DNA from: Gaiellaceae bacterium | GTDB taxonomy: Bacteria; Actinomycetota; Thermoleophilia; Gaiellales; Gaiellaceae | Reading direction: 5' to 3' | Assembly: GCA_035574435.1 (NCBI GenBank) | Contig: DATLYU010000016.1 | Location: 1 to 56,004, forward strand | DNA length: 56,004 nt | Shown here: positions 3,028-54,354 of the stretch, one piece after another | Position numbering within the stretch: position 1 is the stretch's first letter | Layout of the letters: each line of letters starts with the position of its first letter | Notes under the pieces: generated by a model | What the model was told of the DNA's origin: nothing | The model's input: only the letters and a program-made list of their open reading frames with translations | Database searches by the model: none | Made by a program: the position numbers and the translations under genes

Positions 3028-3306
3028 ATGCGGGCGGCCATCCGCGGCGACTTCGAGCGCCTTGCCGAGCGGCGCGGGGCGCAGGAGCTGATGCGCGTGG
3101 ACGAGCGCGACCAGGGCGAGATCCTGGACGACGAGCCGGTGGCGGCGCCGGCTCCCGAGCCTCCCCTGGCGGAGGTCGAGCCCGAGCCCGCACCTGCGCC
3201 GGAGGCGCCGACGGCCGAGCCGGAGGACGATCCGGCCGCAGCCGGGCCCGAGCCGGCCGCGCCCGCTCCGCGGCGCTCCTGGCTCGCCCGGCTCCTCGGG
3301 CGCTGA
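3028..3306 (+). CDS. hypothetical Pro/Ala/Glu-rich small protein
   Basis: ATG 3028 to TGA 3306 (92 aa). The structured-looking N-terminus (MRAAIRGDFERLAERRGAQELMRVDERDQGEIL) is followed by a low-complexity PAPEP tail. No clear SD or -10, so the call is weak. Confidence 0.35.
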   Translation: MRAAIRGDFERLAERRGAQELMRVDERDQGEILDDEPVAAPAPEPPLAEVEPEPAPAPEAPTAEPEDDPAAAGPEPAAPAPRRSWLARLLGR

Positions 3307-14294: not shown

Positions 14295-14368
14295 GGGCCC
14301 GTAGCTCAGCTGGTCAGAGCAGCCGACTCATAATCGGTTGGTCCCTGGTTCGAGTCCAGGCGGGCCCA
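14295..14368 (+). tRNA. tRNA-Met (anticodon CAT); could alternatively be lysidine-modified tRNA-Ile2
   Basis: Hand-folded cloverleaf: acceptor GGGCCCG/CGGGCCC, D arm GCTC-AGCTGGTCA-GAGC, anticodon arm GCCGA-CTCATAA-TCGGT, T arm CCTGG-TTCGAGT-CCAGG, discriminator A. The G1:C72 pair rules out an initiator. CCA is not encoded. Confidence 0.9.
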
Positions 14369-47582: not shown

Positions 47583-48764
47583 ATGGGCCGGAAGCTCGCC
47601 TTCCTGCTCGGTCTCGCGCTCGCGCTGGCGTTCGCCACGCCTGCGGCGGGCGACGACATCGAGGACCGCAAGGCGGCCGTGGACGCCCGCATCGCGCAGC
47701 TCCAGTCCGAGATCCAGGCCGCGCAGGAGCGCGAGGGCGTCCTCACCTCCCAGCTCTCCGCGATCCTCGCGGAGCTCCGCGCCGCGCAGGCGGCGGTGGC
47801 CGAGGCGCAGGGCAGCCTCGACGTCCTCGAGACGGAGCTCGCCTCCGAGCAGGCGCAGCTGCGGGAACTGAGCGAGACGCTGGCCGAGCAGACGCGCCGG
47901 CTGCGCCGGCTGCAGGCGGAGCACCGGCGCGCCGTCGCCGTGCTCGAGGCCCGGGTCCGCGCGATCTACATCGAGGAGCCGCCGGACGTGCTCGCGTTCC
48001 TCGTCTCGGCGGAGAGCTTCGACGACGTGATCACGAGCTACGAGCACCTGCGGCGCATCGGGCGCCAGGACCGCCGCATCGCGCGCCAGGTCGGCGCCGC
48101 GAAGGCGCGCCTGGCCGGAGAGCGGCGCGCAACCGCGCGGACGCGCAGGCTCGTGGCGGCCTCCGTGGCGGTGATCGCGGCGCGCACGGACGAGGCGCGC
48201 GCGGTGCGCGATCGTCTGGCCGCGAGCCGCAACACCCTGGCCGACGCGCGTCAGCTCAAGGCCAGCGCGCTCGCGAGCGTCCGCGAGACCCGCGAGGAGT
48301 ACCTGCACGAAGTCGACGCCCTCGCGGCGCAGAGCGCCGCCCTGGCGGCTCGCATCCGCGAGGCGGGAAGCAGCTCGACCGGGACCGGCACGCCATCCGC
48401 CGCCGGCTTCGTCTGGCCGGTGAACGGCCCCGTGGTCAGCGGCTACGGGATGCGCTGGGGCCGGCTGCACGAGGGCATCGACATCGCGGCCGCCTCGGGC
48501 ACGCCGATCCGGGCGGCTGCGGCAGGGACCGTGATCCACGCCGGGTGGCTCGGCGGGTACGGGAACCTCGTCGTGGTCGACCACGGCAACGGCCTCTCCA
48601 CGGCGTACGCGCACGCCTCCGCGATCCTCGTCGGCGTCGGGCAGTCCGTCGCGCAGGGCGAGACGATCGCGCTCGTCGGCTCGACCGGGAACTCCTCTGG
48701 CCCGCACCTCCACTTCGAGGTGCGCGTGAACGGCACCGCCGTCGATCCCCTCGGCTACCTCTAG
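47583..48764 (+). CDS. M23 family metallopeptidase with N-terminal coiled coil (EnvC-like)
   Basis: Signal peptide, about 250 aa of coiled coil, then HEGIDI…GNLVVVDHG…GPHLHFEV. Confidence 0.88.
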   Translation: MGRKLAFLLGLALALAFATPAAGDDIEDRKAAVDARIAQLQSEIQAAQEREGVLTSQLSAILAELRAAQAAVAEAQGSLDVLETELASEQAQLRELSETLAEQTRRLRRLQAEHRRAVAVLEARVRAIYIEEPPDVLAFLVSAESFDDVITSYEHLRRIGRQDRRIARQVGAAKARLAGERRATARTRRLVAASVAVIAARTDEARAVRDRLAASRNTLADARQLKASALASVRETREEYLHEVDALAAQSAALAARIREAGSSSTGTGTPSAAGFVWPVNGPVVSGYGMRWGRLHEGIDIAAASGTPIRAAAAGTVIHAGWLGGYGNLVVVDHGNGLSTAYAHASAILVGVGQSVAQGETIALVGSTGNSSGPHLHFEVRVNGTAVDPLGYL

Positions 48765-48773
48765 ACGCGGCCG

Positions 48774-49352
48774 CTATGCGGCTTCGGACGCCGCCTGCGG
48801 CAGCTCGGTCCCGGCCACGACGTGCAGGTCGGGCAGCGCCCGCCAGCGCTCGTCCAGCCCCAGCCCGTAGCCGGCGAAGAGCTCGTCCGGCACCGTGAAG
48901 CCCACGTAGCGGAGCGGGAGGTCGTCCACGAGGCGCCGGTACGGTCGATCGAGGAGCGTGACCGCGCTCAGGCTCGCCGGCCGGCGGAGCGCGAGCGTCT
49001 TGACCAGGAAGTGGAGCGTGAGCCCCGTGTCCACCACGTCCTCGACGACGAGCACGTGGCGTCCCTCGAGGGCGACGTCCACGTCCTTGAGCAGGCGCAC
49101 GCCGCCGTCCCGCCCGTCGGCGTACGGGGCGAGCTCGACGACGTCCAGGGTGTGCGGGATGGGGAGCGCCCGCGTGAGGTCGACGAGGAACACGACGCTC
49201 GACTTGAGGGGAGCGACGAGCAGCGGGTCGAGCCCGCGGTAGTCACGCGCGATCTCGGTCGCGAGCTCGGCGACGCGCTCCTGGATCTGCCCTCGGGTCA
49301 GGTACACGGCGCCGACGCTGCCGTGCTCGGAGGCGAGGTCCCGGGCCCGCAC
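48774..49352 (-). CDS. hpt: hypoxanthine phosphoribosyltransferase
   Basis: …LTRGQIQERVAELA…PLKSSVVFLVDL…, PRPP loop HVLVVEDVVDTGLTL, …DELFAGYGLGLDE. GTG start at 49352, 2 nt after the upstream stop. Confidence 0.88.
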   Translation of the reverse strand: MRARDLASEHGSVGAVYLTRGQIQERVAELATEIARDYRGLDPLLVAPLKSSVVFLVDLTRALPIPHTLDVVELAPYADGRDGGVRLLKDVDVALEGRHVLVVEDVVDTGLTLHFLVKTLALRRPASLSAVTLLDRPYRRLVDDLPLRYVGFTVPDELFAGYGLGLDERWRALPDLHVVAGTELPQAASEAA

Positions 49353-49354
49353 GG

Positions 49355-49723
49355 CTACGAGGCGAGCCTCAGGCGATAGCGCTGCGCGAGCCGCTCGATG
49401 TCCCGTCGGTAGAAGAGCTTGACGCGGACGTTCGGATACAGGCGCTGCAGCTCGCGGAGCTTGCGGTTCTTGCGCGTGACGAGCGACTGCTTCATCACCG
49501 TCACCTCGATGAAGAGATCCTGCTCCGGCAGGTAGAAGTCGGGCGTGAACGCGCTCACGACGCGCCCTTCCTCGTCGCGCTCGAGCACGAAGGAGCGCGG
49601 CTCGTAGTCCCAGGGGACGCCGTAGTAGTCCAGGATCTTCGCACACTCGAGCTCCGAGCGATTCGCGAAGCGAGGCGGCTGGGAGCCACGATATGCCTGG
49701 AAAACGGGACTTTCCTCCCGCAC
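49355..49723 (-). CDS. small hypothetical protein, possibly nuclease-fold (weak PD…E motif)
   Basis: 122 aa. …ECAKILDYYGVPWDYEPRSFVL…AFTPDFYLPEQDLFIEVTVMKQ…. TACCCT sits 7 nt before GTG 49723. Confidence 0.5.
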   Translation of the reverse strand: MREESPVFQAYRGSQPPRFANRSELECAKILDYYGVPWDYEPRSFVLERDEEGRVVSAFTPDFYLPEQDLFIEVTVMKQSLVTRKNRKLRELQRLYPNVRVKLFYRRDIERLAQRYRLRLAS

Positions 49724-49730
49724 CTGCGCC

Positions 49731-49736
49731 AGGGTA
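49731..49736 (-). promoter_or_regulatory. -10-like TACCCT (minus strand), 7 nt before GTG 49723
   Basis: The reverse complement reads TACCCT-ggcgcag-GTG. Confidence 0.35.
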
Positions 49737-49765
49737 GCAACGGTCTCGGACGGCGCTCGACCTCG

Positions 49766-49771
49766 TAGACT
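49766..49771 (+). promoter_or_regulatory. -10-like TAGACT, 6 nt before the phosphoesterase GTG
   Basis: TAGACT-gtcccc-GTG(49778). Confidence 0.4.
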
Positions 49772-49777
49772 GTCCCC

Positions 49778-50584
49778 GTGGCGAGCGACGGCCCCTTCCG
49801 CATCGCGCACATCTCCGACCTGCACTGCGGCGGGCCGTACTTCGAGGCCAGCCTGCTCGAGCGGGCGATCAGCGAGGTCAACGAGTTGCGGCCCGACGTC
49901 GTCGTGTGCACGGGCGACCTGACCACCTTCGGCTTCCGGCACGAGTACCTGACCGCGCGTCAGTACCTGGATCGGATCGAGTGCGAGTCGCTCGTCGTCG
50001 TGCCGGGAAACCACGACTCGCGCAACGTCGGCTACGTCCACTTCGAGGAGCTCTTCGGCGACCGCAACTCGGTCCTGCGCAAGGACGGCGTCGTCATCGT
50101 GGCGGTGGACTCGAGCGAGCCCGACCTCGACCACGGCCAGATCGGGCGCGGCCGCTACCGCTGGATCGAGGAGCAGTTCGCGACGGAGCCGGGCGAGCTC
50201 CTCCGCGTCTTCGTGCTCCACCATCACCTGCTGCCGGTCCCAGGGACGGGGCGGGAGCGCAACGTCGTCTACGACGCGGGCGACGCGATCGAGTGCCTGC
50301 AGCGGGCCGGGGTGCGCCTCGTGCTCTCGGGGCACAAGCACGTGCCGTACGTGTGGCGGCTCGAGGACCTCTTCGTCGTCAACGCCGGCACCGTCTCCTC
50401 CCTGCGCCTGCGCGGGAACACGAGGCCCTGTTACAACCTGGTCGAGATCGGCGGCGGGCGGGTGGAGATCTGGCGCCGGCACCCGTTCCACGGCCAGCTC
50501 AAGCTCGTCTCCTTCTCGCTCGACACGCTCGAGTACGCCAAGTTCACGGGCGCCATCGAGGACGAGGTCACGTCCCGGACGTGA
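49778..50584 (+). CDS. calcineurin-like metallophosphoesterase
   Basis: All the signature motifs are present: HISDLH, TGDLT, PGNHD, VLHHHL, SGHKH. Confidence 0.88.
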   Translation: MASDGPFRIAHISDLHCGGPYFEASLLERAISEVNELRPDVVVCTGDLTTFGFRHEYLTARQYLDRIECESLVVVPGNHDSRNVGYVHFEELFGDRNSVLRKDGVVIVAVDSSEPDLDHGQIGRGRYRWIEEQFATEPGELLRVFVLHHHLLPVPGTGRERNVVYDAGDAIECLQRAGVRLVLSGHKHVPYVWRLEDLFVVNAGTVSSLRLRGNTRPCYNLVEIGGGRVEIWRRHPFHGQLKLVSFSLDTLEYAKFTGAIEDEVTSRT

Positions 50585-51846
50585 GCCGCCCGCGCGCGCT
50601 CGCGCTCGTGGACGGGGAGCACTACCCGCCCGTCGTGCGCGACGCGCTCGCGGGCGTGCCCTACGAGGTCGTCGCGGCCGTGCTCGTCGGCGGCGGGGAG
50701 AAGCTGCGCGGCGAGCCGGAGTACGGCGTGCCGCTCGAGCGCGACGTGGAGGCGGCGATCGAGCGGTACGCGCCCGAGCTCGTCCTCGACCTCTCGGACG
50801 AGCCCGTGCTCGGGCCGGTGGAGCGGTTCGCGCTCGCGAGCCGCGTCCTCGCCCGCGGCGTCCCCTACGTGGGGGCGGACTTCCGGCTCGACCCGCCCGC
50901 GCTCGAGCCGTTCGCGCTCCCCTCGATCGCCGTGACCGGCACCGGCAAGCGGGTCGGCAAGACGGCCGTGACGGGCCAGCTCGCGCGCCTGGCGGCGCGC
51001 GACCGCAGCGTCGTCGTCGTCGCCATGGGGCGTGGCGGCCCGCCCGAGCCGGAGGTGGTCTCTGCGCGCCCGACCATGGAGACGCTCCTCGCCCTCTCGC
51101 GCGCGGGTCGCCACGCGGCGTCCGACCACCTGGAGACGGCGGCGCTCGTCGGCGTGCCGACCGTCGGCTGCCGGCGCTGCGGCGGTGGCCTGGCGGGAGG
51201 CGTCGCGTTCTCGAACGTGGCCGAGGGCGCGCGCGTCGCGGCCTCGCTCGGCCCCGACCTGGTCGTCTTCGACGGCAGCGGCGCGGCGCTCCCGCCGATC
51301 GCGACCGACCGCCGCGTGGCGGTCGTGGGCGGCCACCAGGACCCGCGGGTGGCGGCCGGGTACCTGAACCCCTACCGCCTGGCGCTGGCCGACCTGGTCG
51401 TCCTCACAATGTGCGAGCCGGGCACGTCGTGGGAGGACGTGCGCGCGGCGCTCCGCGGCGTCGCAGGGGCCGAGGCGCCGGTCGTGGCCACCGTGCTGCG
51501 GCCGCGCCCGTCCGGCGACGTGGCCGGCCGCACCGTGGCCTACTTCAGCACGGCCCCCGCCACGGCCCACCCTCTGCTCGCCCGTCACCTGGAGGAGCGG
51601 CACGGCGCCCGCGTCGTCCATGTCTCGGGCAACCTGGCCCGCCGGGATGCCCTTGCAGAGGAGCTGCGGGGCGTGGACGCGGAGCTCTTCCTGGTGGAGG
51701 TGAAGGCCGCCGCGGTGGACGTCGTCGCCGAGGCGGCGGCCGCCCGCGGGGTGCCGGTGGTGGCCGCTGCGAACGACGTCGTCCCTCTCCCGGGGGAGCA
51801 GGACCTTGACGAGAACCTCCTGCACCTGGCAGGAATGGGATCGTGA
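50581..51846 (+). CDS. cpgS: cyclic 2,3-diphosphoglycerate synthetase-family protein
   Basis: GTGA overlap. N-terminal LVDGEHYPPVVRDAL, P-loop VTGTGKRVGKTAV, about 420 aa. Assigned from my memory of the archaeal cDPGS family, not from a search. Confidence 0.6.
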   Translation: MSRPRALALVDGEHYPPVVRDALAGVPYEVVAAVLVGGGEKLRGEPEYGVPLERDVEAAIERYAPELVLDLSDEPVLGPVERFALASRVLARGVPYVGADFRLDPPALEPFALPSIAVTGTGKRVGKTAVTGQLARLAARDRSVVVVAMGRGGPPEPEVVSARPTMETLLALSRAGRHAASDHLETAALVGVPTVGCRRCGGGLAGGVAFSNVAEGARVAASLGPDLVVFDGSGAALPPIATDRRVAVVGGHQDPRVAAGYLNPYRLALADLVVLTMCEPGTSWEDVRAALRGVAGAEAPVVATVLRPRPSGDVAGRTVAYFSTAPATAHPLLARHLEERHGARVVHVSGNLARRDALAEELRGVDAELFLVEVKAAAVDVVAEAAAARGVPVVAAANDVVPLPGEQDLDENLLHLAGMGS

Positions 51847-52754
51847 GCGAGCGCCGGCACGCGATTCCTCTCCCGCTCGGCGACGACGTGCCCTTCTCCA
51901 AGGGCCTCATGGCCCGTGCGCTCGTCGTCACCGGGCTCGACCCCGAGCGCTCGTACGTGATCGCCCGCCTCGCCGAGCAGGACCTGTCCCGGCGCGGCGT
52001 CCTCTCGCTCGACGTGGTGCGGCTGGGCGAGGTGGCCGCGGAGGTGATCGGCGACGAGGAGGCGGCGAAGACCGTGCGGCGGCTGCGCCAGCTCCACGCC
52101 CTCCAGCGGATCGAGGAGCCGCTCCTGCTGCTCGTCGGCGGGGCCACGGGCACCGGGAAGTCCACGATCGCGACCGAGGTCGCCCACCTGCTGGGGATCA
52201 CGCGCGTCACCTCCACGGACTTCGTCCGCCAGACGATGCGGGCGTTCTTCTCGGAGGAGTTCATGCCGTCCGTGCACTACTCGAGCTTCGAGGCGCGGCT
52301 CGCGCTCACGCGGGCCGAGGAGGAGGAGTCGGGCGACGCCGCGCTGCTCGGCTTCCTCGACCAGACGCGCAACGTGCTCGTCGGCGTCCAGGCGGCGCTC
52401 GAGCGCGCGGCCACCGAACGCTGGTCGATGGTGCTCGAGGGCGTGCACCTCGTGCCCGGCATGGTGGGCGCGCCCTTCCCGGGCGCGTTCGTCGTCCAGT
52501 GCGTGGTCGCGATCGAGGACGAGAGCCTGCATCGCAGCCACTTCTGGGTGCGCGACTACGCCACGGACGGGCTTCGGCCTTTGGACAAGTACCTGGATGC
52601 GCTTCCGGAGATCCGGAAGATCCAGGACTACCTCGTCGAGCGGGCGCGCCGGTACGACGTCCCGGTGATCGTGAACGACTCGCTGGAGCGTGCGATCGGA
52701 GACGTGCTCGACCTCGTGCTGCGCCGCGCCGACCAGCTCGTGGGCGCGGTCTGA
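51843..52754 (+). CDS. 2-phosphoglycerate kinase-family protein
   Basis: GTGA overlap. PFSKGLMARALVVTG, P-loop GGATGTGKSTIA, and LEGVHLVPG. Assigned from memory of the family. Confidence 0.65.
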   Translation: MSERRHAIPLPLGDDVPFSKGLMARALVVTGLDPERSYVIARLAEQDLSRRGVLSLDVVRLGEVAAEVIGDEEAAKTVRRLRQLHALQRIEEPLLLLVGGATGTGKSTIATEVAHLLGITRVTSTDFVRQTMRAFFSEEFMPSVHYSSFEARLALTRAEEEESGDAALLGFLDQTRNVLVGVQAALERAATERWSMVLEGVHLVPGMVGAPFPGAFVVQCVVAIEDESLHRSHFWVRDYATDGLRPLDKYLDALPEIRKIQDYLVERARRYDVPVIVNDSLERAIGDVLDLVLRRADQLVGAV

Positions 52755-52770
52755 GCCGGCCCGCCGCCTC

Positions 52771-52776
52771 TACACT
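52771..52776 (+). promoter_or_regulatory. -10-like TACACT, 6 nt before ATG 52783
   Basis: TACACT-gccgcc-ATG. Confidence 0.4.
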
Positions 52777-52782
52777 GCCGCC

Positions 52783-53082
52783 ATGGTCACGCGCGAGGAC
52801 GTGGTCGAGGCGCTGCACGGCGTCGAGGATCCCGAGCTCGGGATGGACATCGTCGAGCTCGGCCTCATGTACGACGTCGAGGTCGAGGGGCCGAGGGTGA
52901 AGGTGCTCTACAGCCTCACCTCCATGGGCTGCCCCGCCGGCCCGATGATCGCGGACGGGATCTACGACGCGGTGCGCTCCCTGCCCGGGGTCGAGGAGGT
53001 CGAGACCGAGCTCACCTTCGACCCGCCCTGGACGCCCGACCGCATGTCGGACGACGCGAAGTTCATTCTTGGCTTTGGCTAG
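52783..53082 (+). CDS. DUF59/SufT-like metal-sulfur cluster assembly factor
   Basis: …VEDPELGMDIVELGLMYDVEV…LTSMGCPAGPMI…FDPPWTPDRMS. Confidence 0.85.
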   Translation: MVTREDVVEALHGVEDPELGMDIVELGLMYDVEVEGPRVKVLYSLTSMGCPAGPMIADGIYDAVRSLPGVEEVETELTFDPPWTPDRMSDDAKFILGFG

Positions 53083-53100
53083 CGGTTTTTCGCCCCTCTC

Positions 53101-53129
53101 TTGAGGTGCGGGTAAGAAACGGGTACACT
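53101..53129 (+). promoter_or_regulatory. sigma-70/SigA-type promoter TTGAGG-N17-TACACT for the integrase
   Basis: Hexamers at 53101-53106 and 53124-53129 in a locally AT-richer stretch. SD GAAGGAGG precedes ATG 53170. Confidence 0.55.
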
Positions 53130-53169
53130 CGGGAGGCTTCCGATCGCCCCTCGTCGAAGGAGGTTCCCG

Positions 53170-54354
53170 ATGACCCCACGGAAGGCGTCGCTGCGGGTGG
53201 CGCACGCGCGCTCGTGCCCGAACGCCTCCAAGACGGCGCTCGCGAGCGCCGGCCGCGGCTCCGGCTGCACCTGCCAGCCCTCCTACTACGTGGCGACGCG
53301 CGACCGCGACGGGCGCACGGTGAAGAGCGCGCGCGTGCGCGACCGCCGCACGGCGGAGCGCCTGCTGGAGCGCGCGCAGCGCGAGATCGACGAGGGCCGC
53401 GTCGGCATCGCCAAGCCGAAGGAGATCACGTTCGGCGCCTGGGCGGACGAGTTCGAGCGCATCCTCGACCAGCGCATCCAGGCCGGCGAGCTGCACCCGC
53501 GCACGAAGGGCTCGTACGCCTCGACGCTGCGCCGCGGGCGGGAGGCGTTCGGCTCCCTGTACCTGCGCGAGATCGGAAACCCGGAGCTGCGCCTGTTCCT
53601 GGAGCCGTTCGCGCACCTGCGGCCCGCCTCCCGGCTGCGCTACCTGCGCGAGCTGTCGGCGGTGCTGACGACGGCGATCGGGGACGGGTACCTGGAGACG
53701 AACCCGGTCCCCCGGTTCACGAAGGCGGCGAAGCTGCGCGCGCCCAAGCGCGGCAAGGCGCCGTTCGAGGACGACGAGCTCGAGCGCCTGTGGGCGGAGC
53801 TGGGGCGGCTCGAGGCGAAGGTGTACCTGTACGCGTGCCGCTTCGCGGTCGAGACGGGCGTGCGCCTGGGCGAGCTGATCGCGCTGGAGTGGGAGAACGT
53901 CGACCTGCTGCGCGGCCGGGTGCGCGTCGAGGCGCAGTGGGACGACCGGGTTGGCCTGCTCGAGCCGAAGGACCGCGAGCCGCGCGTCATCTACCTGACG
54001 CCGCCGGCGCGCCAGGTGCTCGCCGAGTGGGTGGGGGTGGTCGGGGCGCGGGCCGCCGGGCCGGTGTTCCCGGGGCCGAACGGAGGCCGGCTCGGCCGCC
54101 GCGACCTGCAGCGTCGCTTCGAGGCGGCGCGGGAGGCGGCGCGCATCCCCAAGCTGCACCCGGAGCTGCGGCTGCCGCGCACGCTGCACTCGCTGCGCTA
54201 CACGACGAGCGTGCTCCTGCAGCGGCGCGGCTACCACCCGCGGCTGATTGAGGCGACGCTCGGCCACAGCTCGCTGGAGCTGACCTACGGGGTGTACGGC
54301 GGCTGGACGCCGGAGATGCTCGCCGCCGAGGCGGCGCGCGACCTACAAGCGTGA
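53170..54354 (+). CDS. tyrosine-type site-specific recombinase (phage integrase family)
   Basis: N-terminal SAM-like/core-binding region. Catalytic residues in context: TGVRLGEL (Arg), HSLRYT (His-x-x-Arg), LGHSS (His), LTYGVYGGW (Tyr). Confidence 0.9.
   Translation: MTPRKASLRVAHARSCPNASKTALASAGRGSGCTCQPSYYVATRDRDGRTVKSARVRDRRTAERLLERAQREIDEGRVGIAKPKEITFGAWADEFERILDQRIQAGELHPRTKGSYASTLRRGREAFGSLYLREIGNPELRLFLEPFAHLRPASRLRYLRELSAVLTTAIGDGYLETNPVPRFTKAAKLRAPKRGKAPFEDDELERLWAELGRLEAKVYLYACRFAVETGVRLGELIALEWENVDLLRGRVRVEAQWDDRVGLLEPKDREPRVIYLTPPARQVLAEWVGVVGARAAGPVFPGPNGGRLGRRDLQRRFEAAREAARIPKLHPELRLPRTLHSLRYTTSVLLQRRGYHPRLIEATLGHSSLELTYGVYGGWTPEMLAAEAARDLQA

What the first reader, a model, noticed from the sequence alone, without database searches (positions are those of the whole stretch)
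49778..52754. Archaeal-type cyclic 2,3-diphosphoglycerate module (2PGK + cDPG synthetase) fused into an operon with a metallophosphoesterase
Three genes are linked by GTGA overlaps (50581-50584, 51843-51846) behind a TAGACT-N6-GTG start:
- a calcineurin-like metallophosphoesterase with all the signature motifs
- a ~421-aa P-loop protein that I assign to the cyclic 2,3-diphosphoglycerate synthetase family (LVDGEHYPPV…, GTGKRVGKT)
- a 303-aa 2-phosphoglycerate kinase-type protein (PFSKGLMARAL, GGATGTGKST, EGVHLVPG)

2PGK and cDPGS catalyse 2-PG -> 2,3-DPG -> cDPG. This pathway is known from hyperthermophilic methanogens (Methanothermus, Methanopyrus, Methanothermobacter), where cDPG serves as a thermoprotective solute and phosphate/carbon store.

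The pair inside a bacterial chromosome is unusual. The obligatory-looking coupling to a phosphoesterase is unusual too. To my knowledge the gene for cDPG hydrolysis has not been firmly assigned. The phosphoesterase is therefore a candidate cDPG or 2,3-DPG hydrolase, which would make this a self-contained synthesis and turnover cassette. Family assignments are from memory of sequence signatures, not from a search.
Basis: partly seen in the sequence, partly recalled or inferred. Interest (0 to 1): 0.7.

Follow-up and report, generated by a model that had tools for sequence, protein, structure and literature searches.

The report
Bacterial cDPG operon with dedicated phosphoesterase
A soil-type actinobacterium (Gaiellales-like) carries a tightly coupled three-gene operon for making cyclic 2,3-diphosphoglycerate, a solute the literature ascribes only to hot-spring methanogens, together with a conserved phosphoesterase that is the best available candidate for the never-identified enzyme that breaks this solute down.

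Summary
Three co-directional ORFs sit at 49778-50584, 50581-51846 and 51843-52754, joined by GTGA stop/start overlaps behind a TAGACT box. [quoted passage not shown]

- **cDPGS:** E 7e-87 and about 43% identity to the crystallised M. fervidus enzyme; every published ligand residue I could map is conserved.
- **2PGK:** E 1e-73 to 4e-80 to the 2PGK models, but below their curated cut-offs.

The cassette is not a rarity in bacteria.
- At least 522 species genomes encode a cDPGS relative.
- All 80 best loci, all Gaiellales-type MAGs, keep MPE-cDPGS-2PGK, mostly with the same 4-nt overlaps.

The MPE is linked well beyond that order.
- It lies immediately upstream of cDPGS in other actinobacterial lineages with different flanking genes: 30 of 44 evaluable metagenome loci.
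- A tandem-domain version follows cDPGS-2PGK in an Asgard archaeon and a Cloacimonadota MAG.
- It is the most conserved of the three proteins.

Methanobacteriales, Thermococcus, Streptomyces and Bipolaricaulota lack it next to cDPGS.

The MPE's role as a cDPG or 2,3-DPG hydrolase is inferred, not shown. I found no paper describing bacterial cDPG or this linkage. The direction of archaea-bacteria transfer is unresolved.

The parts
49766..49771 (+). TAGACT -10-like box, 6 nt upstream of the GTG start; probable promoter of a leaderless operon transcript
   Evidence: Sequence read directly. A TAGACT/TACACT/TATGCT hexamer about 5-8 nt before the MPE start is conserved in nearly all 80 Gaiellales loci. 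The generic sigma-70 scan found nothing here, so promoter function is inferred.
49778..50584 (+). Metallophosphoesterase (268 aa), first gene of the operon; candidate cDPG / 2,3-DPG phosphohydrolase
   Evidence: Pfam Metallophos E 1e-20. Metal-ligand motifs are SDLH (D14/H16), GD47, GNHD (N78/H79), HHH148-150 and GHKH (H186/H188). The AF2 model has pLDDT 78.8 and pTM 0.84. Nearest structures are Rv0805 and GpdQ, TM 0.67-0.69 at 19-25% identity. No TM segment. Identity to orthologues is 70-91% in 80 of 80 Gaiellales loci and 48-62% in other actinobacterial cassettes.
50581..50584 (+). GTGA stop/start overlap between MPE and cDPGS (translational coupling)
   Evidence: The same 4-nt overlap occurs at 54 of 70 scorable junctions in related loci.
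50581..51846 (+). Cyclic 2,3-diphosphoglycerate synthetase homologue (421 aa)
   Evidence: PDB 8ORK/8ORU (M. fervidus cDPGS): E 7e-87, residues 5-403 aligned to 6-434. 9SXB: E 1e-78. About 43% identity, and the ligand residues E40 K41 K123 R124 K127 T128 D182 E279 T324 E373 K375 are conserved. Precomputed Pfam PF27272 CpgS_N.
51843..51846 (+). GTGA stop/start overlap between cDPGS and 2PGK
   Evidence: The same 4-nt overlap occurs at 67 of 80 junctions in related loci.
51843..52754 (+). 2-phosphoglycerate kinase-type P-loop kinase (303 aa)
   Evidence: NCBIfam PRK12337 E 3.5e-80 and PRK04220 E 1.3e-73, the latter covering model positions 14-293 of 306. Both are below the curated equivalog cut-offs. 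The gene lies immediately downstream of cDPGS in Gaiellales, other Actinomycetota, Streptomyces, Acidimicrobiales, Thermococcus, Asgard and Cloacimonadota loci.

Best explanation
This is a leaderless, translationally coupled three-gene operon for cyclic 2,3-diphosphoglycerate (cDPG) metabolism in a Gaiellales-type actinobacterium.

The third gene (2PGK-type kinase) phosphorylates 2-phosphoglycerate to 2,3-diphosphoglycerate with ATP. The second gene (cDPGS) uses a second ATP to close the two phosphates into the cyclic pyrophosphate cDPG. These two steps are inferred from strong homology, conserved ligand residues and gene linkage.

The first gene is a soluble binuclear-metal phosphoesterase of a distinct, arginine-rich MPE subfamily. 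It is the pathway's dedicated hydrolase. Most likely it opens the cyclic pyrophosphate (cDPG + H2O -> 2,3-DPG). Alternatively, or in addition, it removes a phosphate from 2,3-DPG, returning carbon and phosphate to glycolysis. This step is inferred only from conserved linkage and chemistry.

Because synthesis and breakdown genes are co-expressed, the pool size would have to be set post-translationally. One model is inhibition of the hydrolase by Pi and K+, as reported for the cDPG hydrolase activity of Methanothermobacter. That would make cDPG a phosphate/carbon store or stress solute rather than a thermoprotectant in these non-thermophilic bacteria.

My sub-confidences:
- gene identities: 0.95
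- cDPG is really the product: about 0.75
- the MPE acts on cDPG or 2,3-DPG: about 0.5
For: **Gene identity.**
- cDPGS: E 6.7e-87, about 43% identity to the crystallised M. fervidus enzyme.
- The substrate, Mg and nucleotide ligand residues named in PMC10690619 (E45, K46, K145, R146, K149, T150, D208, E305, T353, E404, K406) are conserved. One listed residue, P335, did not map to a Pro in my numbering.
- 2PGK profile hits at E 1e-73 and 3.5e-80.
- MPE with a complete metal site.

**Operon.**
- GTGA overlaps and the TAGACT box are conserved across 80 genomes.

**Linkage of the MPE beyond inherited synteny.**
- The same MPE-cDPGS-2PGK triad sits in a different neighbourhood (thrC/thrB ... rho-rpmE-prfA) in other actinobacterial lineages: L084-086, L090, L092.
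- The MPE is immediately upstream in 30 of 44 evaluable actinobacterial-type metagenome loci.
- A tandem-MPE protein of the same subfamily follows cDPGS-2PGK in an Asgard contig (L094), a Cloacimonadota MAG (L089) and two further loci (L119, L172). It is 31-33% identical, E 1e-26 to 1e-36, and shares the HHxxxPxP..GRERN/DAGD motifs.
- On an NJ tree, MPE-positive loci occupy the backbone and MPE-negative loci form a few nested subclades.
- The MPE is the most conserved of the three proteins: mean identity 79.7% against 67.2% and 70.0%.

**Chemistry.**
- The closest characterised MPEs, Rv0805 and GpdQ, hydrolyse cyclic and acyclic phosphodiesters.
- The subfamily-specific invariant arginines (R124, R159, R161, R210, R212, R216) lie in flexible loops next to the metal-ligand motifs. 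This fits a polyanionic substrate.
- A cDPG hydrolase activity inhibited by K+ and Pi exists in Methanothermobacter (PMC1224877). I found no paper that assigns a gene to it.
Against: - No metabolite or enzyme data exist for any bacterium. The literature reports cDPG only from methanogens.
- Co-expressing a synthetase and its hydrolase risks an ATP-wasting futile cycle. The regulation that would prevent it is assumed.
- The Methanothermobacter hydrolase is described as membrane-bound, whereas this MPE has no hydrophobic segment.
- No MPE is adjacent to cDPGS in Methanobacteriales (26 loci), in Thermococcus, or in several bacterial lineages. Many presumed cDPG producers therefore lack this linkage.
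- The 2PGK scores are below NCBIfam's equivalog cut-offs.
- The cDPGS superfamily contains at least one enzyme with a quite different reaction, arginine synthetase ArcE (PMC11032458).
- MPE substrate specificity cannot be read from sequence.
Confidence: 0.55

Rival explanations
1. The two P-loop enzymes make cDPG as above. The MPE is linked for another reason and does not hydrolyse cDPG or 2,3-DPG. It might be a cyclic-nucleotide phosphodiesterase (it is auto-annotated CpdA/Icc) that tunes a signal controlling the pathway. It might instead clear a side-product, such as the 2-pyrophospho intermediate or another phosphorylated glycerate, or supply substrate from some other phosphoester.
For: JGI names the orthologues 3',5'-cyclic-AMP phosphodiesterase CpdA / Icc. 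The best sequence and fold matches are the class III cNMP phosphodiesterase Rv0805 and the promiscuous GpdQ. Many cDPGS-bearing lineages do without an adjacent MPE. Placing a hydrolase of the end product first in the same operon is metabolically awkward.
Against: Scores against the curated cNMP-phosphodiesterase models are far below cut-off: PRK11148 40 bits against 225, SpdA 47 against 400. Identity to Rv0805 and GpdQ is only 19-25%. The subfamily has its own invariant Arg-rich motifs, which the Rv0805 alignment lacks. Linkage to cDPGS-2PGK recurs in unrelated gene neighbourhoods and in two domains of life, which points to a role in the same pathway.
Confidence: 0.25
2. In bacteria the cDPGS and 2PGK homologues have a different substrate or product and no cDPG is made. 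The pathway might stop at 2,3-DPG, or it might phosphorylate and cyclise another hydroxy-acid phosphate. The MPE would then belong to that unknown pathway.
For: cDPG has never been reported from a bacterium. The 2PGK-like family includes enzymes with other substrates: mevalonate-3-phosphate 5-kinase PRK12339 hits at 80 bits. The cDPGS superfamily includes arginine synthetase. The 2PGK score is below the equivalog cut-offs. The hosts appear from record names to be environmental (many look soil-derived), where a thermoprotectant has no obvious use (my inference, not verified).
Against: All residues that contact 2,3-DPG, Mg2+ and the nucleotide in the M. fervidus complex are conserved. Identity of about 43% over the full length is high for a change of reaction. 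The cDPGS-2PGK pairing is kept from Thermococcus and Asgard archaea to Actinomycetota. Mesophilic Methanobacterium and Methanobrevibacter also keep cDPGS, so the gene is not tied to heat even in archaea.
Confidence: 0.12
3. The MPE is next to cDPGS only through inherited gene order and has no functional link to it.
For: Within Gaiellales the whole neighbourhood (ccmF, M23 peptidase, HPRT, a small ORF, the triad, a DUF59-type protein) is syntenic. The 80 of 80 count alone therefore does not prove coupling.
Against: The triad recurs with entirely different flanks in other lineages, and a tandem version recurs in Asgard and Cloacimonadota contigs. The stop/start overlaps are conserved. The MPE is under stronger constraint than its partners.
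Confidence: 0.05

Closest known systems
cDPG biosynthesis of Methanothermus fervidus and Methanothermobacter (2PGK + cDPGS; PDB 8ORK/8ORU; PMC10690619, PMC12136491)
   Same: Same two enzyme families. cDPGS is about 43% identical over its full length, with the Walker A motif GTGKRxGKT and all mapped 2,3-DPG, Mg and ADP ligand residues conserved. 2PGK matches the archaeal 2PGK profiles end to end.
   Different: - The host is a bacterium of the Gaiellales type, not a thermophilic methanogen.
- The two genes are fused into one translationally coupled operon. In Methanobacteriales cDPGS stands alone between UPF0058 and a RimB-like gene.
- A third gene, the MPE, is part of the unit.
- The protein is about 40 residues shorter, through loop deletions in the N-terminal domain.
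- The product has not been verified.
cDPG hydrolase activity of Methanothermobacter thermautotrophicus (Sastry et al. 1992, PMID 1550819; summarised in PMC1224877)
   Same: It catalyses the reaction proposed here for the MPE (cDPG -> 2,3-DPG). It gives a precedent for regulated turnover, with inhibition by K+ and Pi.
   Different: It is known only as an activity and is described as membrane-bound. I found no gene assignment. The window MPE has no membrane segment. No MPE lies next to cDPGS in Methanobacteriales. I could not read the primary paper.
Class III cyclic-nucleotide phosphodiesterase Rv0805 and glycerophosphodiesterase GpdQ (MPE superfamily; PDB 3IB7, 3D03)
   Same: Same fold and the same binuclear metal-site motifs. 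These are the best sequence matches (E 2e-11 to 2e-10) and fold matches (TM 0.67-0.69).
   Different: Only 19-25% identity. Scores are far below the curated CpdA and SpdA model cut-offs. The window subfamily carries its own invariant motifs (PDLDxGxxGR, HHHLLPxPGTGRERN, DAGD, SLRLRG), which are absent from the Rv0805 alignment.
Arginine synthetase ArcE (TK2200, Thermococcus kodakarensis; PMC11032458)
   Same: A distant paralogue of cDPGS in the same P-loop superfamily. It shows that the fold can host other ATP-coupled reactions.
   Different: The paper itself calls the similarity to cDPGS low. The window protein groups with bona fide cDPGS (E 1e-87), keeps the 2,3-DPG ligands and is linked to 2PGK, not to arcB/arcC.

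Membership tests
[quoted passage not shown] | Full-length sequence similarity to an experimentally characterised cDPGS | tested here: met
   phmmer against PDB: 8ORK/8ORU (M. fervidus) E 6.7e-87, query 5-403 aligned to 6-434; 9SXB (Thermococcales-type) E 1.2e-78. About 43% identity.
[quoted passage not shown] | Walker A P-loop GxxGxGK[T/S], and the residues that bind 2,3-DPG, Mg2+ and ADP in the crystal complex (E45, K46, K145, R146, K149, T150, D208, E305, T353, E404, K406) | tested here: met
   The corresponding window residues are E40, K41, K123, R124, K127, T128, D182, E279, T324, E373 and K375. All are invariant in alignment A1, which includes the M. fervidus sequence. The residue list comes from PMC10690619. 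P335 in that list did not map to a Pro in my numbering, which may be a numbering issue in the paper.
[quoted passage not shown] | Family-specific N-terminal domain (Pfam PF27272 CpgS_N) | tested here: inconclusive
   The precomputed annotation of the window's own protein (P0001) lists PF27272. The local Pfam and NCBIfam copies returned no family, so I could not score it myself.
[quoted passage not shown] | Catalyses 2,3-DPG + ATP -> cDPG + ADP + Pi | not testable with these tools
   Needs an enzyme assay or metabolite detection.
[quoted passage not shown] | Belongs to the cDPGS clade rather than the paralogous arginine synthetase (ArcE) clade | tested here: inconclusive
   I had no ArcE sequence to compare. 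Indirect evidence favours cDPGS: the nearest characterised relatives are cDPGS at E 1e-87, the 2,3-DPG ligands are kept, and 2PGK is adjacent.
2-phosphoglycerate kinase (2PGK) | End-to-end match to the curated 2PGK profiles above their equivalog cut-off | tested here: not met
   PRK04220: 248 bits (E 1.3e-73) against a cut-off of 343, covering model positions 14-293 of 306. PRK12337: 270 bits (E 3.5e-80) against a cut-off of 603. This is clear family-level homology, and these are the best of all models, but it falls below the equivalog threshold. I therefore call it '2PGK-type'.
2-phosphoglycerate kinase (2PGK) | P-loop kinase core (Walker A GxxGxGKS/T) and genomic pairing with cDPGS | tested here: met
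   GGATGTGKST is present. A homologue lies immediately downstream of cDPGS in 80 of 80 Gaiellales loci and in Streptomyces, Acidimicrobiales, Thermococcus, Asgard and Cloacimonadota loci.
2-phosphoglycerate kinase (2PGK) | Catalyses 2-PG + ATP -> 2,3-DPG + ADP | not testable with these tools
   No solved structure or ligand map exists to check residues. Needs an assay.
Calcineurin-like metallophosphoesterase superfamily | Pfam PF00149 above the gathering score, and the conserved metal-ligand motifs D-x-H / GD / GNH[DE] / H / GHxH | tested here: met
   75.4 bits against a cut-off of 21.5. Motifs: SDLH, GD47, GNHD, HHH148-150, GHKH186-188, invariant in 30 orthologues. The AF2 model gives MPE-fold matches.
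Class III cNMP phosphodiesterase CpdA/Icc (the automatic annotation of the orthologues) | Score above the curated CpdA (PRK11148) or SpdA model cut-offs | tested here: not met
   PRK11148: 40.4 bits against 225. SpdA NF050112: 46.6 bits against 400. Identity to Rv0805 is 25%.
cDPG hydrolase (activity described in Methanothermobacter) | Hydrolyses cDPG to 2,3-DPG; inhibited by K+ and Pi | not testable with these tools
   I found no gene or sequence for this activity, so only an assay can decide.
cDPG hydrolase (activity described in Methanothermobacter) | Membrane-bound | tested here: not met
   The maximum 19-residue Kyte-Doolittle hydropathy of the MPE is 0.68, so no TM segment is predicted. 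If it is a cDPG hydrolase it is a soluble one, and probably not the orthologue of the methanogen activity.

The most novel reading that the evidence does not exclude
cDPG, held for 40 years to be a speciality of hyperthermophilic methanogens, may in fact be a mainstream phosphate/carbon store or stress solute. Candidate users are Gaiellales (which appear from MAG names to be largely environmental, many soil-derived), other Actinomycetota, Cloacimonadota and Asgard archaea. On this reading the conserved Arg-rich metallophosphoesterase is the long-missing cDPG hydrolase, a cyclic pyrophosphatase, and the cassette is a self-contained, post-translationally gated synthesis and turnover unit.
Probability: 0.3. 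Interest if true: 0.8.

Novelty: new variant of a known kind. Interest (0 to 1): 0.65.

Why it matters
- **Biology of the solute.** If the cassette works as read, the known range of cDPG moves from a handful of thermophilic methanogens to a large, abundant group of environmental bacteria and to Asgard archaea. Its role would shift from thermoprotection towards phosphate/carbon storage or general stress protection.
- **An old open question becomes testable.** It gives a concrete, clonable candidate for cDPG breakdown. That activity was described biochemically in 1992, and I found no gene assigned to it.
- **Biotechnology.** cDPG is being developed as an extremolyte (PMC12136491). Mesophilic, translationally coupled 2PGK-cDPGS pairs and a matching hydrolase would be useful parts, or a gene to avoid or delete in production hosts.
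- **Annotation.** The orthologues are currently labelled 'cAMP phosphodiesterase CpdA/Icc', which this analysis does not support.

Tried and rejected
- **Local profile scans for the 421-aa protein.** Local Pfam and NCBIfam returned nothing. The assignment rests on the PDB sequence search and the precomputed PF27272 annotation.
- **Anti-phage defence role.** The top NCBIfam hit of the MPE is an 'anti-phage phosphoesterase', but at 74 bits against a cut-off of 420 and only over residues 117-201. PADLOC gave one weak generic MPE hit. Rejected.
- **RNA elements.** An Rfam scan of 48500-53500 found nothing at E <= 0.1.
- **Promoter and terminator scan.** The generic sigma-70 scan found no promoter. 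The one 'terminator' lies inside the 2PGK coding sequence, at chance level.
- **Recent horizontal transfer.** Cassette GC equals that of the flanks, and the locus sits in a block syntenic across Gaiellales. The integrase just downstream is not part of that block (1 of 80 loci).
- **Direction of archaea-bacteria transfer.** Two NJ trees have no outgroup (I had no ArcE sequences) and no support values. Left unresolved.
- **Sastry et al. 1992.** Not held in the library.
- **Locus L095** ends at the gene, so it is uninformative.
- **Small upstream ORF.** Its PDB hits to ubiquitin are repeat-summing artefacts (0 stretches pass).
- ** label.** The 'closest reference' label in my script output was unreliable. 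I used only the identity columns.

Full report
**1. What is in the sequence**

Three co-directional ORFs occupy 49778-52754 on the + strand:

| ORF | Coordinates | Length | Start |
|---|---|---|---|
| MPE | 49778-50584 | 268 aa | GTG |
| cDPGS | 50581-51846 | 421 aa | GTG at 50581 |
| 2PGK | 51843-52754 | 303 aa | GTG |

- Both junctions are GTGA, so the stop TGA overlaps the next GTG start.
- TAGACT lies at 49766-49771, 6 nt before the first start.
- GC content of the cassette (0.68-0.77) matches the flanks.
- No Rfam family and no canonical sigma-70 promoter or credible terminator lies in the region.

**2. Family assignments**

*ORF1, metallophosphoesterase.*
- Pfam PF00149 at 75 bits against a cut-off of 21.5.
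- All metal-ligand blocks are present: SDLH, GD, GNHD, HHH, GHKH.

*ORF2, cDPGS.*
- It has no hit in the local Pfam or NCBIfam copies.
- It matches the crystallised cDPG synthetase of Methanothermus fervidus (8ORK/8ORU) at E 6.7e-87 over almost its whole length. It matches a Thermococcales-type cDPGS (9SXB) at E 1.2e-78.
- Identity is about 43%.
- The residues that PMC10690619 names as contacting 2,3-DPG, Mg2+ and ADP are E45, K46, K145, R146, K149, T150, D208, E305, T353, E404 and K406. They correspond to window residues E40, K41, K123, R124, K127, T128, D182, E279, T324, E373 and K375. All are invariant in an alignment that includes the archaeal enzyme.

*ORF3, 2PGK-type kinase.*
- It matches NCBIfam PRK04220 (E 1.3e-73, model positions 14-293 of 306) and PRK12337 (E 3.5e-80) far better than the related kinase models.
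- Both scores are below the curated equivalog cut-offs, so I call it '2PGK-type'.

*A paralogue to exclude.* Arginine synthetase ArcE is a distant paralogue of cDPGS (PMC11032458). The window protein sits with genuine cDPGS, keeps the 2,3-DPG ligands and is paired with 2PGK, so ArcE is not a serious alternative.

**3. How common is it**

The top hits are 72-75% identical. Their sources name them cDPG synthetase from Gaiellaceae, Thermoleophilia or 'Actinobacteria' MAGs.
- A scan of one genome per GTDB species found at least 522 loci encoding a relative. The best 80 (61-74% identity) are all Gaiellales-type MAGs. The window therefore most likely comes from this order, without a close sequenced relative. 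This is inference.
- At 50% clustering the family has 281 representatives at E <= 1e-30.
- Names recovered for representatives include Gaiellales, Acidimicrobiales, cultured Streptomyces strains, Bipolaricaulota, Cloacimonadota, Thermococcus, an Asgard archaeon (Borrarchaeum) and many Methanobacteriales. The last group includes the mesophilic genera Methanobacterium and Methanobrevibacter.
- Literature searches found no paper linking Gaiella or Thermoleophilia with diphosphoglycerate. None describes bacterial cDPG. The 2023 structure paper still states that cDPG is exclusive to hyperthermophilic methanogens.

**4. Is the phosphoesterase really coupled**

*Within Gaiellales.*
- All 80 loci have MPE-cDPGS-2PGK in the same order.
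- The 4-nt overlap occurs at 54 of 70 scorable MPE/cDPGS junctions and 67 of 80 cDPGS/2PGK junctions.
- A TAnnnT box lies just before the MPE start in nearly all.
- However, the whole neighbourhood is syntenic in this order: ccmF, M23 peptidase, HPRT, a small divergent ORF, the triad, and a DUF59-type protein. This count alone does not prove functional coupling.

*Outside the order (the decisive evidence).*
- **Other actinobacterial lineages, different context.** The same triad lies between the thr genes and rho-rpmE-prfA.
  - L084-086 have an MPE 62% identical to the window's, against 47% for cDPGS.
  - L090 has an MPE 59% identical.
  - L092 has an MPE 48% identical, cut by the contig end.
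- **80 diverse metagenome loci.**
  - An MPE orthologue is immediately upstream of cDPGS, on the same strand, in 30 actinobacterial-type loci.
  - It is absent in 14 loci that have at least 900 nt of upstream sequence.
  - 2PGK is immediately downstream in nearly all of these.
- **Tandem-MPE version.** A Cloacimonadota MAG (L089) has cDPGS-2PGK-CBS followed by a 499-aa tandem-MPE protein. An Asgard contig (L094) has GDPD-cDPGS-2PGK followed by a 511-aa tandem-MPE protein. L119 and L172 repeat this layout.
  - These domains are 31-33% identical to the window MPE, at E 1e-26 to 1e-36. The nearest characterised MPE reaches only E 2e-11.
  - They share subfamily motifs (HHxxxPxP..GRERN, DAGD).
- **Lineages without an adjacent MPE.**
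  - Streptomyces and Acidimicrobiales: cDPGS-2PGK only.
  - Bipolaricaulota: ABC transporter-cDPGS-iPGM.
  - Thermococcus: MGS-type glycosyltransferase-cDPGS-2PGK.
  - Methanobacteriales: cDPGS alone between UPF0058 and a RimB-like gene, in 26 further loci.
- **Tree pattern.** On an NJ tree without support values, tandem-MPE loci branch near the base. MPE-positive loci occupy the backbone of the actinobacterial clade. MPE-negative loci form a few nested subclades. This suggests old linkage with several losses or relocations.
- **Constraint.** The MPE is the most conserved of the three proteins, with mean identity 79.7% against 67.2% and 70.0%.

**5. What the phosphoesterase looks like**

- The AF2 model (pLDDT 78.8, pTM 0.84) has an MPE fold.
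- The nearest solved structures are Rv0805 and GpdQ (TM 0.67-0.69, 19-25% identity), followed by purple acid phosphatases.
- Scores against the curated CpdA and SpdA models are far below cut-off. The 'cAMP phosphodiesterase CpdA/Icc' labels given to the orthologues are therefore unsupported.
- It has no membrane segment.
- Its subfamily-specific invariant motifs are PDLDxGxxGR (115-124), HHHLLPVPGTGRERN (148-162), DAGD (166-169) and SLRLRGNTR (208-216). They lie in the loops that follow metal-ligand strands.
- These motifs coincide with the low-confidence, probably mobile segments of the model. They contribute at least six invariant arginines.
- That pattern is what one would expect for a small polyanionic substrate. 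This is inference, not a test.

**6. Mechanism proposed**

- *Shown by homology.* 2PGK converts 2-PG to 2,3-DPG. cDPGS converts 2,3-DPG to cDPG, each at the cost of one ATP, following the M. fervidus mechanism.
- *Inferred.* The MPE is the pathway's hydrolase. It opens the cyclic pyrophosphate or dephosphorylates 2,3-DPG.
- *Assumed.* Pool size is gated post-translationally. A precedent is the inhibition by K+ and Pi reported for the Methanothermobacter cDPG hydrolase activity (PMC1224877). I found no gene assigned to that activity.
- *Context in other lineages.* Neighbours tie the cassette to lower glycolysis and to glycerate-based solutes, which fits this reading. They include:
  - iPGM;
  - a transaldolase/FSA-type gene;
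  - a mannosylglycerate-synthase-type glycosyltransferase;
  - an MGH1-like glycoside hydrolase;
  - a GDPD phosphodiesterase;
  - a CBS protein.

**7. Weak points**

- No metabolite or enzyme data exist for any bacterium.
- Co-expressing a synthetase and a hydrolase needs a regulatory explanation.
- The methanogen hydrolase is described as membrane-bound, whereas this MPE is soluble.
- Classical cDPG producers lack an adjacent MPE. I could not test whether they carry an unlinked orthologue.
- The direction of inter-domain transfer is open.

**8. Verdict**

The cassette is common rather than odd in these bacteria. The MPE coupling is frequent but not universal. 'Archaeal origin' is unproven. 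The hydrolase role is a well-motivated hypothesis.

I classify it as a new variant of a known kind. The pathway is known, but it sits in a new host range, and the conserved third component is, as far as I could find, undescribed.

Noticed in passing
window 53170-54354 (+), with further ORFs to about 55600: A tyrosine-recombinase-like ORF (394 aa) starts right after the DUF59-type gene. A homologue is found at that position in only 1 of 80 related loci (L015). The syntenic block therefore ends at about 53100, and an integrated element probably begins there. No tRNA gene is nearby (the window's only tRNAs are at 3212-3284 and 14295-14368). The recombinase assignment is by eye and was not searched.
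   Followed up: partly
window 49355-49747 (-), possibly extending to about 49810: A small divergent ORF (about 130 aa) is conserved in 75 of 80 Gaiellales loci. It has no Pfam hit and only a marginal match to T7 endonuclease I (E 0.034). Its conserved N-terminal coding sequence (PSE..TLA) runs into the MPE promoter region, and no ATG/GTG/TTG lies before it until a GTG that would overlap the MPE start on the opposite strand. The true start is unclear.
   Followed up: partly
L036 10182-11225 (+) and equivalent positions in L027, L030, L034, L037 and others: Deeper-branching Gaiellales carry an extra ORF of about 347 aa, with no Pfam hit, between 2PGK and the DUF59-type gene. It is absent from the window. 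It could be a fourth operon member or an unrelated insertion.
   Followed up: no
proteins P0395, P0493 (MPE C-terminus + cDPGS) and P0409 (cDPGS + P-loop kinase): Some database representatives are single polypeptides that join neighbouring cassette genes. They may be true fusions, which would be strong evidence for functional coupling. They may equally be gene-call artefacts at the 4-nt overlaps.
   Followed up: no
L081-L083 (Methanothermobacter, Methanobacterium): In Methanobacteriales, cDPGS is consistently flanked by a UPF0058 gene upstream and a RimB-like (PF05618) gene about 15 nt downstream. 2PGK is elsewhere. The RimB-like gene may be a lineage-specific partner.
   Followed up: no
L176 (Streptomyces rimosus pSRIMHP, 458089-459381); L087 (Streptomyces sp. 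WAC 01529): Cultured Streptomyces carry cDPGS homologues. S. rimosus has a stand-alone copy (54% identity) annotated 'hypothetical protein'. WAC 01529 has an overlapping cDPGS-2PGK pair near a chromosome end. These are easy organisms for testing bacterial cDPG.
   Followed up: partly
L084-086, L088, L089, L090, L092, L093, L094: Recurrent neighbours of the cassette in other lineages:
- an MGH1-like glycoside hydrolase
- a mannosylglycerate-synthase-type glycosyltransferase
- cofactor-independent phosphoglycerate mutase
- a TAL/FSA aldolase
- a GDPD phosphodiesterase
- a stand-alone CBS protein
- a 5'-nucleotidase-type MPE

These suggest links to glycerate-based solutes and to energy sensing.
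   Followed up: no
L006/L008 (same contig CAVQVJ010000002.1), L023/L024, L071/L072, L001/L007 (same MAGs): Several MAGs, and one single contig, contain two near-identical copies of the whole cassette region. This may be a real duplication, strain mixing in the bin, or an assembly artefact at a contig end.
   Followed up: no
L089 9733-11232; L094 9367-10902: In the tandem-MPE proteins the second domain has lost metal ligands. In L089 SDxH becomes SNTF, GNHD becomes AGRD and GHxH becomes GTSSHP. In L094 GNHD becomes GHRD. This looks like a catalytic domain plus a degenerate domain forming a pseudo-dimer.
   Followed up: partly
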